Assembly (NCBI RefSeq): GCF_041248615.1
Contig: NZ_CP158426.1
Length of the DNA: 64,000 nt
Origin: Escherichia coli
GTDB taxonomy: Bacteria; Pseudomonadota; Gammaproteobacteria; Enterobacterales; Enterobacteriaceae
Direction: 5' to 3' (one strand)
Each line of letters opens with the position of its first letter. Within the stretch, counting starts at the first letter, position 1. A program made the position numbers. This document shows positions 42,501 through 45,087 of the stretch, in pieces.

Positions 42501-45087
42501 TGCCATTTGCGATGGTCACCTTTTTTATGACCTTTTCGTATGCCGGGGTTTCTGCTTTTCTGGCGCTTTATGCACGCGAACTTAACCTGATGTCGGCAGC
42601 CAGTAATTTCCTGCTTTGCTACGCTATCTTCCTGATGATCTGCCGTACCTTTACCGGCAATGTCTGCGACAAAAAAGGACCGAAATATGTGGTTTACCCT
42701 TGCCTTGTGTTCTTTACGGTAGGACTGGTGGTTCTCGGCTACACCCAGGGAAGCATAATGATGGTTGTTTCTGGCGCATTGATTGGTATCGGGTATGGTT
42801 CCGTGACGCCAGTTTTTCAGACGCAGATTATCAGTTCAGTGGAACCGCATAAAATCGGTGTCGCAAACTCCCTCTTCTTCAATGCGATGGATGCAGGCCT
42901 GGCGCTGGGAGCCTGTGTGATGGGGATGATGGTTGCACATACTGGCTACCGAATGATTTATCTGCTGGGTGCACTATTAGTGGTAGTGGCTGGTGGAGTC
43001 TATGCGCTGCAAATGAAGGGTAAAAGCGGTGTCGCGCTAGTAGTGGCAAAAGAAATTCATTAATACGACACGTTTCATTAAGATTTTTCGCAGGTAACCA
43101 CCTATAGTCATTGTCGTTAATAAAAAATGACAGGCGATAGGGTATGGCAGTTTCAGCAAAGCACGACGAATTTAATCACTGGTGGGCAACAGAGGGCGAC
43201 TGGGTTGAAGAGCCTAACTATCGCCGTAATGGTATGAGCGGGGTGCAATGCGTCGAGCGCAACGGCAAAAAGCTATATGTAAAGCGCATGACGCATCATC
43301 TGTTTCATTCCGTACGTTATCCGTTCGGCCGACCAACGATTGTCCGTGAGGTTGCGGTAATTAAAGAACTGGAACGGGCTGGTGTCATCGTGCCGAAGAT
43401 TGTTTTTGGTGAAGCGGTGAAAATTGAGGGGGAATGGCGCGCGTTGCTGGTGACTGAAGATATGGCGGGGTTCATCAGCATTGCTGACTGGTATGCCCGG
43501 CATGCAGTAACGCCCTATTCTGACGAAGTACGGCAAGCCATGTTGAAAGCAGTGGCGCTGGCGTTTAAGAAAATGCATAGCGTTAATCGTCAGCATGGCT
43601 GTTGCTATGTTCGCCATATCTATGTGAAAACAGAAGGTAAGGCAGAAGCTGGATTTCTTGATCTGGAGAAAAGTCGTCGCCGCTTGCGTCGCGATAAAGC
43701 GATTAATCATGACTTCCGCCAGCTGGAAAAATATCTGGAGCCGATCCCCAAAGCGGACTGGGAGCAGGTGAAAGCGTATTACTACGCCATGTAATCGTTG
43801 TAGGCCAGATAATACGCGTAATGAACTGCACCCCAAATGTTGGACATAATCTGACATCTGAAGGTGCAGTTTATGAAACATTCATTTGAAGTAAAACTTG
43901 CCGCTGTAAATCATTACCTGGCTGGTCATGCAGGCATCATTTCTACGGCAAAACTCTTTCAACTTTCTCACACCAGCCTCTCACACTGGATTAATCTTTT
44001 TCTTCTTCACGGTCCTCGGGCACTGGATTGCAGACACAAGCGTAGCTATTCTCCTGAAGATAAACTTTGCGTGGTTCTTTATGCTCTCGGGCATTCTGAG
44101 TCTCTACCCCGGGTAGCTGCCCGGTTTAACATTCCCAGCCACAACACGGTTAAAAACTGGATAAAAGGCTACCGCAAATCTGGTAATGAGGCCTTTATCA
44201 GGCGCAGGAAGGAGAAAAGCATGACCCGTTCTGATGATACCCATGAAAACGAGGCAAACATGACGCCGGAAGAGATGAAGAATGAGCTGCGTTATCTTCG
44301 CGCAGAAAATGCATATCTGAAAGCCATGCAGGAGCATCTCCTGGAAAAAAAGCGCCAGGAGCTGGAGAAAAAACGAAAGTCATCCGGAGCCTGAGGTGCG
44401 GACACTGCCAGTCTGACCTGTTAAAGGCTGCAGGGCTGGCCAGAAGCACGCTGTACTACCAGCTGTCACTGCAGAAGGCTAAGGACAAGTATGCTGATGT
44501 GAAACAGCTCATAGCCTCCATCTTCCATGAACACCGGGGATGTTATGGGTACCGGCGGATCCATTGTGAGCTTCAGAAAAGAGGTCTTAAGTTCAGTGGC
44601 AAAACAGTGCGAAAACTGATGCAACAGCTCGGCCTGAAGTCTCCTGTGCGCCTGAAGAAATACCGGTCTTACCGGGGAAATATGGGACTCGCTGCAGAAA
44701 ATATCCTTCAGCGGCAGTTCAAAGCGGAAGCTCCCTGTGAGAAATGGGTGACAGATATCACCGAATTCAGGGCTGGCGGACAAAAACTGTACCTGTCTCC
44801 GATACTTGATTTGTTTAACGGGGAAATCGTGGCGTGGGAAACGGCCTGCAGGCCTACAGAGGAGCTGGTGAAGCGCATGTTAAATAAGGGGCTGGAAAGC
44901 CTTGCTGAAGGGGAGAAACCGCTGCTCCACAGTGATCAAGGATGGCATTACCGGATAAAAAGTTATCAGTCCGCCCTGGCGGACAGAGGGTTAGTGCAGA
45001 GCATGTCGCGCAAGGGCAACTGCCTTGATAATGCGGTAATGGAGAACTTCTTTGGTCACCTGAAAGAAGAAATGTACTATCGCCGGG

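What the first reader, a model, noticed from the sequence alone, without database searches (positions are those of the whole stretch)
43064..43143. Very short (80 bp) inaA upstream region containing a GTCATT-N13-AATGAC inverted repeat
inaA is known to be stress-inducible (mar/sox/rob-type activation recalled). Here only 80 bp separate the MFS stop from the inaA ATG, with a 6-bp-arm inverted repeat at 43107-43131. Either the inaA promoter is unusually compact or inaA is partly co-transcribed with the upstream MFS gene.
Basis: inference. Interest (0 to 1): 0.2.

Follow-up and report, generated by a model that had tools for sequence, protein, structure and literature searches.

The report
Ordinary stress-inducible inaA promoter, incidental repeat
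The 80 bases between the transporter gene and inaA hold the already known stress-activated inaA promoter of E. coli, and the small inverted repeat in it is no more than chance would give and varies between strains.

Summary
The MFS gene stops at 43063 and inaA starts at 43144. GTCATT (43107-43112) and AATGAC (43126-43131) are 13 bp apart. A perfect 6-bp inverted repeat like this occurs in about 26% of shuffles of the gap and 27-44% of comparable 80-bp tiles. Among E. coli genomes its spacer is 11-13 bp and its right arm varies (AACGAC, AATAAC). It is absent in other genera.

The gap holds a complete class II Mar/Sox/Rob-type sigma-70 promoter:
- a degenerate marbox (43065-43084) starting 2 bp after the MFS stop codon;
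- 18 bp downstream, a -10 hexamer TATAGT (43103-43108) whose T-A-T-x-x-T positions are invariant in 19 sequences from several genera;
- a predicted start near 43113-43116 and a 5' leader of roughly 30 nt.

K-12, where inaA regulation was studied, has the same marbox and -10. Its copy of the gap differs from the window's at three positions.

So the promoter is compact but not unusual, and a marbox scan was a reasonable check. Co-transcription with the MFS gene is not excluded, because no terminator lies between them.

A published screen instead predicts a marbox inside the MFS coding end (43036-43050), at -49 from a mapped start equivalent to 43092. Its geometry and conservation are worse.

The repeat is the core of a larger imperfect palindrome (43101-43141) running from the -10 to the ribosome-binding site. 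Its function is unproven.

The parts
41873..43063 (+). MFS transporter gene, divergently paired with a LysR-family regulator gene at 40822-41721 (- strand)
   Evidence: ORF list; NCBIfam MFS and LysR hits; annotated 'MFS transporter' in identical E. coli records
43064..43143 (+). 80-bp MFS-inaA intergenic gap holding the inaA promoter and 5' leader
   Evidence: K-12-type E. coli keep the gap with three differences from the window. ST131-type genomes are more diverged but still homologous
43065..43084 (+). Candidate marbox A, ACGACACGTTTCATTAAGAT, forward orientation, overlapping the -35 position (class II geometry)
   Evidence: 3 mismatches to AYNGCACNNWNNRYYAAAYN, which is not significant alone. 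It is the only place in 64 kb where such a match lies 17-19 bp upstream of a -10 hexamer matching at least 5 of 6. The ST131 allele differs only at degenerate positions. nCAY-N6/7-TTAAG is conserved across genera
43103..43108 (+). -10 hexamer TATAGT of the main inaA promoter (P1)
   Evidence: T, A, T and the final T are invariant in 19 sequences from Escherichia, Citrobacter, Pseudocitrobacter, Leclercia and Intestinirhabdus
43113..43116 (+). Predicted P1 transcription start (inferred from the -10 position, not mapped)
   Evidence: Inference: 5-8 nt downstream of the -10. This places the centre of the marbox A core (43075) at about -40/-41, as at rfaY (-41), fumC (-39) and micF (-41.5)
43107..43131 (.).
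   Evidence: present; chance level; polymorphic
43101..43141 (+). Larger imperfect palindrome / potential RNA hairpin: CCTAT/ATAGG + GTC/GGC + TGTCGTT/AATGACA, 7-nt loop. The left arm covers the -10 and the right arm covers the ribosome-binding site
   Evidence: RNA folds: -13.8 kcal/mol, z -3.9 for 47 nt. It forms only if transcription starts upstream of P1. No consensus structure across genera
43132..43137 (+). Probable Shine-Dalgarno region (AGGCGA)
   Evidence: The two G at 43133 and 43136 are invariant across 19 orthologous regions. The assignment as Shine-Dalgarno is inference
43144..43794 (+). inaA (lipopolysaccharide kinase InaA)
   Evidence: NF007383 equivalog, full length, E 3e-154
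43036..43050 (+). Rival site B, GCTAGTAGTGGCAAA, inside the last codons of the MFS gene
   Evidence: Listed for inaA at -49 in Table S2 of PMC12052159. Located in the window. Scores 6.4 bits on a PWM built from MarA ChIP-seq sites, against 2.5 bits for A. Not conserved outside the Escherichia MFS 3' end and disrupted in ST131
43092..43092 (+). Position equivalent to the K-12 transcription start 2347545 (U00096.2), 51 nt upstream of the K-12 ATG. Its possible -10 is TAAGAT at 43079-43084
   Evidence: TSS from the list used in PMC12052159. inaA ATG = 2347494 from the Kim 2012 supplement. The coordinate convention was checked on the nrdA sites
43052..43059 (+). Conserved GAARTCC-like block (here GAAATTCA), about -60 from P1, inside the MFS coding end
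   Evidence: Conserved also in genera that lack the MFS gene. Function unknown

Best explanation
The gap is the ordinary, already known inaA regulatory region of E. coli, placed here directly behind an MFS gene that K-12 has lost.

Inferred mechanism: MarA, SoxS or Rob, as a monomer, binds the degenerate marbox at 43065-43084 in forward orientation. The marbox overlaps a very poor -35. The activator contacts RNA polymerase as at class II promoters such as micF. Polymerase then uses the -10 TATAGT (43103-43108) and starts near 43113-43116, giving a leader of roughly 30 nt with a Shine-Dalgarno sequence near 43132-43137.

The GTCATT/AATGAC repeat is not an operator. It is a chance-level, polymorphic part of an A/T-rich leader. 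At most it is the core of a weak hairpin.

Shown here: the sequence elements, their spacing, their conservation, and identity of the marbox and -10 with K-12. Taken from the literature: inaA is activated by MarA/SoxS/Rob. Inferred: which marbox is used and the exact start site.
For: (1) In the whole 64-kb window, both strands, a marbox match with at most 3 mismatches lying 17-19 bp upstream of a -10 hexamer matching at least 5 of 6 occurs once, at 43065. The expectation is 1.3 per window, or about 0.0008 per 80 bp.

(2) The T-A-T-x-x-T positions of that -10 are invariant in 19 orthologous upstream regions from at least five genera, whatever the upstream gene is.

(3) The centre of the marbox core lies at -40/-41 from the predicted start. 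This matches the experimentally validated class II sites rfaY (-41) and fumC (-39) in the same table, and micF at -41.5.

(4) The best -35 candidates match only 1-2 of 6 positions by my own reading of the sequence. The promoter scan, which needs at least 4 of 6 in each hexamer, does not call this promoter. Both fit an activator-dependent promoter.

(5) All three ST131 substitutions within the marbox fall at N or W positions.

(6) The sequence 43045-43143 is retained in all three structural haplotypes of the locus, covering 5425 of 5426 genomes.

(7) K-12-type genomes have the same marbox and -10. In K-12, inaA is a documented MarA target with weak MarA affinity, which fits a poor marbox (2.5 bits on the ChIP-derived PWM).

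(8) The repeat is at chance level, is polymorphic and is not conserved.
Against: - The marbox match alone is not significant: 128 matches in the window against 137 expected. It also scores lower than site B on a PWM built from high-affinity MarA ChIP-seq sites.
- I could not read the primary papers that defined the inaA marbox (Martin et al. 1999; Rosner and Slonczewski 1994; White et al. 1992 were not held). Identifying site A with the published site therefore rests on geometry and on my memory.
- The only mapped start I could retrieve is at the equivalent of 43092, not 43113-43116.
- Outside E. coli and two Citrobacter lineages, the marbox consensus match at the expected position decays to near-random values.
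Confidence: 0.68

Rival explanations
1. The Mar-responsive promoter is the upstream one. The activator binds GCTAGTAGTGGCAAA (43036-43050, inside the MFS coding end), polymerase uses TAAGAT (43079-43084), and transcription starts at 43092. The promoter would then extend into the MFS gene, and TATAGT would simply be leader sequence.
For: Table S2 of PMC12052159 lists exactly this site at -49 from a start at 2347545. It has 1 mismatch to that paper's consensus gcannwwntgnnaaa. It scores 6.4 bits against 2.5 bits for site A on the ChIP-derived PWM.
Against: - The site is a computational prediction and was not tested in that paper.
- Its centre at -49 is 8-10 bp upstream of the validated class II sites rfaY (-41) and fumC (-39) in the same table.
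- Its GC(A) half is replaced in ST131-type E. coli (1044 or more genomes), and the whole site is absent in Citrobacter and other genera.
- The final T of TAAGAT is not conserved across genera, whereas the TATxxT positions of TATAGT are invariant.
- 193 other 15-mers in the window score at least as well.
Confidence: 0.17
2. The palindrome 43101-43141, of which the reader's repeat is the core, works at the RNA level. In transcripts that start upstream of P1 (MFS read-through, or the minor start at 43092) it folds and buries the ribosome-binding site. Transcripts from P1 start inside the left arm and stay open. inaA translation would thus be insulated from upstream transcription.
For: - Folds of upstream-started RNA give the same 15-bp interrupted hairpin in three E. 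coli haplotypes: z -2.1 to -4.3 for 68-69 nt and z -3.7 to -4.4 for 46-47 nt.
- It persists in a 141-nt read-through model.
- RNA starting at 43115 is unstructured (-3.7 kcal/mol, z +0.2).
- The ST131 T-to-C change turns a G-U pair into G-C, and the A-run length changes fall in the loop.
- Several Citrobacter lineages pair the segment just after the -10 with the Shine-Dalgarno region using different sequences, for example ACCGTC/GACGGT against ACCGCC/GGCGGT.
- No terminator separates MFS and inaA.
Against: - RNAalifold finds no consensus structure across genera.
- In a positional test, the best partner of the Shine-Dalgarno region lies at the -10 or discriminator region in only about 11 of 28 related sequences. 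Equally strong partners occur elsewhere in the others.
- Sister Escherichia species carry mismatches in both stems.
- E. coli variants AATAAC and GTCGTA break stem pairs.
- The segment boundaries were chosen after seeing the repeat.
Confidence: 0.2
3. The inverted repeat is the operator of a dimeric repressor or activator that acts on inaA, for example the neighbouring LysR-type regulator.
For: The repeat overlaps the -10 and start region, where repressors often bind.
Against: - It is at chance level.
- The spacer is 11, 12 or 13 bp in different E. coli and the right arm varies.
- It is not conserved in other Escherichia or other genera.
- The repeat persists in K-12-type and ST131-type genomes that have lost the LysR gene.
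Confidence: 0.04
4. A substantial share of inaA mRNA in strains with the intact MFS gene comes from read-through of the MFS transcript (co-transcription). This is not exclusive of the best explanation.
For: The two genes are on the same strand with an 80-bp gap, and no terminator-like site lies in 42700-43400. In K-12, Kim et al. 2012 assigned to inaA only starts 536 and 651 nt upstream, inside glpQ.
Against: No expression data are available for any strain with the intact MFS gene. Rho-dependent termination cannot be assessed from sequence. inaA keeps its own conserved promoter in every context.
Confidence: 0.3

Closest known systems
Class II Mar/Sox/Rob-dependent promoters of E. coli (micF, fumC, rfaY, lpxL P1)
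   Same: It has a forward-oriented, degenerate 20-bp marbox overlapping a weak -35, with its centre near -41, and a good -10. The gene is a documented member of the regulon.
   Different: Nothing of substance differs. The marbox is poorer than at high-affinity MarA targets (ACAC instead of GCAC, AAG instead of AAA; 2.5 bits), in line with the reported weak MarA response of PinaA. In this strain the marbox abuts the stop codon of an MFS gene that K-12 lacks.
The K-12 inaA promoter region (inaA / yfaH remnant)
   Same: K-12 has the same marbox, -10, Shine-Dalgarno region and start codon. Within the gap it differs at three positions: one A fewer in the A-run and two substitutions at 43089/43091.
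   Different: K-12 carries a deletion that removed most of the LysR gene and the MFS gene, leaving a 105-nt MFS 3' remnant annotated as a pseudogene. Here both genes are intact, as in 1232 of 5426 genomes.
Fold-back inhibition of IS10/IS50 transposase translation in read-through transcripts
   Same: The geometry matches. The left arm of a hairpin lies upstream of the gene's own start site, and the right arm covers the ribosome-binding site, so only externally initiated transcripts can fold.
   Different: It is untested here. The hairpin is weaker and imperfectly conserved. inaA is a chromosomal stress gene, not a transposase.

Membership tests
Class II Mar/Sox/Rob-dependent sigma-70 promoter | A marbox (AYnGCACnnWnnRYYAAAYn) in forward orientation | tested here: inconclusive
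   43065-43084 has 3 mismatches. Matches of that quality are as frequent as in shuffles (128 against 137). It scores 2.5 bits on a ChIP-derived PWM.
Class II Mar/Sox/Rob-dependent sigma-70 promoter | Marbox overlaps the -35 and is centred near -41 (about 18 bp from the -10) | tested here: met
   There are 18 bp between the marbox and TATAGT. This is the only such composite in 64 kb. The calibrators are rfaY -41, fumC -39 and micF -41.5. The start site itself is inferred.
Class II Mar/Sox/Rob-dependent sigma-70 promoter | Weak -35 with a functional -10 | tested here: met
   The -35 candidates match 1-2 of 6 positions by my own reading, and the promoter is not called by the two-hexamer scan. The TATxxT positions of the -10 are invariant in 19 sequences.
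Class II Mar/Sox/Rob-dependent sigma-70 promoter | Activation by MarA, SoxS or Rob that depends on this marbox | not testable with these tools
   Gene-level regulation is documented for K-12.
Palindromic operator of a dimeric regulator | Repeat arms and spacing exceed chance and are conserved among orthologous regions | tested here: not met
   26-44% chance occurrence. Spacer of 11-13 bp and variable right arm within E. coli. Absent in other genera.
Intrinsic (Rho-independent) terminator between MFS and inaA | G+C-rich stem followed by a T run | tested here: not met
   0 terminator-like sites in 42700-43400. The hairpin is A/U-rich and is followed by AGGGTATGG.
Shine-Dalgarno-occluding fold-back hairpin (IS10/IS50 type) | Left arm upstream of the gene's own start, right arm over the ribosome-binding site, and stability above background | tested here: met
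   (z -2.1 to -4.4). This depends on the inferred P1 start.
Shine-Dalgarno-occluding fold-back hairpin (IS10/IS50 type) | Pairing maintained in evolution (covariation) | tested here: inconclusive
   No RNAalifold consensus. The positional test is weak. Some changes are compensatory-like and some variants break pairs.
Any curated RNA family (Rfam 15) | Covariance-model match | tested here: not met
   The only hit in 42700-43500 is a spurious snoRNA match inside inaA (E 4.7, 12 bits against a gathering score of 40).

The most novel reading that the evidence does not exclude
The 41-bp imperfect palindrome from the -10 hexamer to the ribosome-binding site (43101-43141) is a translational insulator. 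RNAs entering from the MFS gene, glpQ or the minor start at 43092 fold it and hide the inaA ribosome-binding site. RNAs from the Mar/Sox/Rob-activated start begin inside the left arm and are translated. This would be a chromosomal counterpart of the IS10/IS50 fold-back protection against outside promoters.
Probability: 0.15. Interest if true: 0.4.

Novelty: already known. Interest (0 to 1): 0.12.

Why it matters
It matters little. The finding re-describes the regulatory region of a long-studied Mar/Sox/Rob regulon gene, and the highlighted repeat is not a distinct element.

Three modest points may be useful:
- The promoter's upstream edge abuts, and its conserved -60 block overlaps, the 3' end of an MFS gene that K-12 has deleted. 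K-12-based promoter annotation therefore hides the native context.
- Two different marboxes for inaA can be proposed, the geometry-supported site A and the site B of a 2025 screen. A simple experiment would settle which is used.
- If the -10-to-Shine-Dalgarno hairpin does block translation of read-through transcripts, it would be a neat example of insulating a stress gene from its upstream neighbours.

Tried and rejected
- Marbox consensus scan alone: uninformative, with 128 hits against 137 expected.
- Two-hexamer sigma-70 scan: finds only a chance-level site inside the MFS gene and misses the activator-dependent promoter.
- PWM built from 32 MarA ChIP-seq sites (Sharma 2017, Table 1): both candidate sites are weak, so it does not discriminate between them.
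- Literature search for the published inaA marbox and start site:
  - The primary papers are not held.
  - Text searches for 'inaA promoter', for inaA with class II, and for the site sequences found nothing useful.
  - Cappable-seq, SMRT-Cappable-seq, Conway 2014, Salmonella ChIP and Sharma 2017 supplements gave nothing for inaA.
  - Kim 2012 lists only starts inside glpQ.
- Rfam: no family.
- Terminator reading of the hairpin: rejected, because there is no T run and the stem is A/U-rich.
- LysR operator reading: rejected, because the repeat persists where the LysR gene is gone.
- Conserved RNA structure across genera: RNAalifold gave no consensus and the positional anti-Shine-Dalgarno test was weak.
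- OxyS and CpxR links mentioned in the literature are predictions without site data and were not pursued.
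Full report
**Observation**

The window is E. coli chromosome. The local gene order is glpT, glpQ (39669-40802 as listed), a LysR-family regulator (40822-41721, - strand), an MFS transporter (41873-43063, +), inaA (43144-43794, +), an IS3-family element, then yfaE, nrdB and nrdA on the - strand.

The gap between the MFS stop and the inaA ATG is 80 bp. The inaA product is full length against the NCBIfam InaA equivalog (1-216 of 216, E 3e-154), so the start codon is sound.

**Is the repeat more than chance?**

No.
- At least one perfect 6-bp inverted repeat with a 0-20 bp spacer occurs in 26% of dinucleotide-preserving shuffles of the gap.
- It occurs in 27% of all 80-bp tiles of the window and in 44% of tiles with at least 60% A+T. 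The gap is 62.5% A+T.
- It is unstable within the species. The exact 55-nt stretch 43092-43146 with the N13 form is in 827 of 5426 complete genomes. The K-12 form, with one A fewer (N12), is in 2344. The ST131 form, with AACGAC, is in 1044.
- Sampled minor haplotypes show an N11 spacer, AATAAC, and GTCGTA or GTTGTA.
- Sister Escherichia species have AACAAC or AAAGAC. Other genera have an unrelated, roughly 10-nt longer leader.

**Locus context**

The MFS-inaA junction is intact in 1232 of 5426 E. coli genomes.
- K-12-type genomes carry a deletion from inside the LysR gene (the yfaH remnant) to 107 bp before the MFS stop. This leaves a 105-nt pseudo-CDS.
- ST131-type genomes have glpQ followed directly by inaA, with homology starting at window 43045.
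- LysR-MFS-inaA is also the arrangement in three other Escherichia species and one Pseudocitrobacter MAG. Citrobacter and others have glpQ-inaA.
- All arrangements keep the last roughly 100 bp before the ATG.

**The promoter**

I aligned 19 upstream regions from Escherichia, Citrobacter, Pseudocitrobacter, Leclercia and Intestinirhabdus. The invariant columns are T, A, T and the final T of the hexamer at 43103-43108 (TATAGT here, TATATT or TATGAT elsewhere), one A of a TTAAG motif (43081), two G of the probable Shine-Dalgarno region (43133, 43136), and the ATG. That pattern is the signature of a -10 element.

Eighteen bp upstream of it lies ACGACACGTTTCATTAAGAT (43065-43084). It has 3 mismatches to the marbox consensus, which is not significant by itself (128 matches in the window against 137 expected). 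The composite is significant. A marbox with at most 3 mismatches, then 17-19 bp, then a -10 matching at least 5 of 6 with A2 and T6, occurs once in the 64 kb on both strands, here. The expectation is 1.3 per window, or about 8e-4 for an 80-bp stretch.

With a start 5-8 nt after the -10 (43113-43116), the centre of the 15-bp marbox core (43075) lies at about -40/-41. Validated class II sites in Table S2 of PMC12052159 are rfaY at -41 and fumC at -39. The micF soxbox is centred at -41.5 (PMC9638938).

The -35 candidates match only 1-2 of 6 positions by my own reading. The promoter is not picked up by the two-hexamer scan, as expected for an activator-dependent promoter.

The three ST131 substitutions inside the marbox all fall on N or W positions. 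An nCAY-N6/7-TTAAG pattern is conserved across genera, although the formal consensus match decays outside E. coli and two Citrobacter lineages.

K-12-type genomes have the same marbox and -10. In K-12, inaA is a recognised MarA target with a weak, non-saturating MarA response.

The marbox starts 2 bp after the MFS stop codon. Marbox, core promoter and a leader of roughly 30 nt therefore fill the 80 bp exactly. That is compact, but it is the normal footprint of a class II promoter.

**A competing assignment**

The computational screen in PMC12052159 lists, for inaA, the site TTTGCCACTACTAGC (genome + strand) centred at 2347594. This is -49 from a start at 2347545 in U00096.2.
- The inaA ATG is at 2347494 in those coordinates (Kim 2012 supplement).
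- I checked the coordinate convention on the two nrdA entries against the window. The site coordinate is the 15-mer centre, and nrdA's ATG falls at 2342887.
- The start is therefore 51 nt upstream of the K-12 ATG, equivalent to A43092. The site is GCTAGTAGTGGCAAA at 43036-43050, inside the last codons of the MFS gene in this strain.

However, the site is only predicted.
- It scores better than site A on a PWM I built from 32 MarA ChIP-seq sites (6.4 against 2.5 bits). Still, 193 other 15-mers in the window do as well.
- Its position is 8-10 bp off the validated class II sites.
- Its GC(A) half is replaced in ST131-type genomes and the site is missing outside Escherichia.
- The TAAGAT that would serve as its -10 does not keep its final T across genera.

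I rate it at about 0.17. The start at 43092 may well be a real minor start.

**What the repeat belongs to**

It is UGUCGUU/AAUGACA (-4.4 kcal/mol, 7-nt loop), extended by GUC/GGC and CCUAU/AUAGG into a 15-bp interrupted hairpin spanning 43101-43141.
- Its left arm contains the -10 hexamer and its right arm the Shine-Dalgarno region.
- It is more stable than shuffles: z -3.9 for 47 nt; z -2.3, -2.1 and -4.3 for 68-69-nt leaders of the three main haplotypes.
- It persists in a 141-nt read-through model.
- RNA starting at 43115 is unstructured.

This is the geometry of fold-back inhibition of read-through transcripts known from IS10 and IS50. That comparison is recalled from the literature, not read here.

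Evidence for selection on the pairing is mixed.
- In favour: the ST131 change makes a G-U pair G-C, and the A-run changes are in the loop. Several Citrobacter lineages pair the post--10 segment with the Shine-Dalgarno region using different sequences.
- Against: RNAalifold finds no consensus, and a positional test is weak. Sister Escherichia species carry stem mismatches, and some E. coli variants break pairs.

I keep this as the novel reading, at a probability of about 0.15-0.2.

**Other readings**

- An intrinsic terminator is excluded: there is no T run, the stem is A/U-rich, and no site is called.
- A dimeric-regulator operator is unlikely: the repeat is at chance level, has variable spacing, and persists where the LysR gene is lost.
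- No Rfam family matches.
- Co-transcription with the MFS gene is not excluded, because nothing terminator-like separates the genes. I found no expression data for strains with the intact MFS gene.

**Verdict**

The region is the known inaA Mar/Sox/Rob promoter in its native, non-K-12 context. Interest is low.

Noticed in passing
window 40822-43063 (compare L001, L002, L003): The LysR-MFS gene pair between glpQ and inaA is a three-state structural polymorphism in E. coli. It is intact in 1232 of 5426 genomes. K-12-type genomes have an internal deletion, so yfaH is the LysR remnant and a 105-nt 'hypothetical protein' pseudo-CDS is the MFS 3' end. ST131-type genomes lack the pair, with the junction at about 43045. 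The pair is present in three other Escherichia species and one Pseudocitrobacter MAG.
   Followed up: partly
window 43795-45283: An IS1397 (IS3 family) copy is inserted between the convergent genes inaA and yfaE. The reference strain ST2747, otherwise 100% identical here, has only 53 bp there.
   Followed up: partly
window 43052-43059: A GAARTCC-like block (GAAATTCA here), about 60 bp upstream of the predicted inaA start, is conserved in genera that lack the MFS gene. In Escherichia it lies inside the last MFS codons. It could be an alpha-CTD or second-regulator contact, but this is unexplained.
   Followed up: no
L009-L011, L016, L017, L028 etc., about 60-75 bp upstream of the inaA ATG (equivalent to window 43078-43095): Non-E. 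coli orthologues carry CTTAAG-N6-CTTAAG (two self-palindromic hexamers) across the -35 and spacer region. In E. coli proper the second copy has decayed to TCAGG or GCAGG. This may be a regulator site lost in E. coli.
   Followed up: no
L028 (NZ_JAATUR010000019.1, 'E. coli SCPM-O-B-8794'): inaA is only 83% identical in protein and has a Citrobacter-like promoter. The flanking glpQ (95%) and yfaE (98.8%) are E. coli-like, which suggests allelic replacement of inaA and its promoter by recombination.
   Followed up: no
window 38226-38244 (- strand): This is the only zero-mismatch match to the 19-nt marbox consensus in the window (ACCGCACACATTATTAAAT). It lies in the glpA-glpT divergent intergenic region and points toward glpA. 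PMC12052159 lists glpA among genes with a predicted marbox, but with a different sequence.
   Followed up: no
window 50134-50148 (+ strand): The best-scoring match to the MarA ChIP-derived PWM in the window (GCAATATTTGCTAAA, 17.9 bits) lies inside the large yfaL-like ORF 49795-53523. It is probably a non-functional intragenic site.
   Followed up: no
K-12 U00096.2 2348030 and 2348145 (inside glpQ; equivalent to the 3' part of window glpQ): Kim et al. 2012 assigned two transcription starts inside glpQ, 536 and 651 nt upstream of the ATG, to inaA. This hints at transcription entering the inaA region from upstream in K-12.
   Followed up: no
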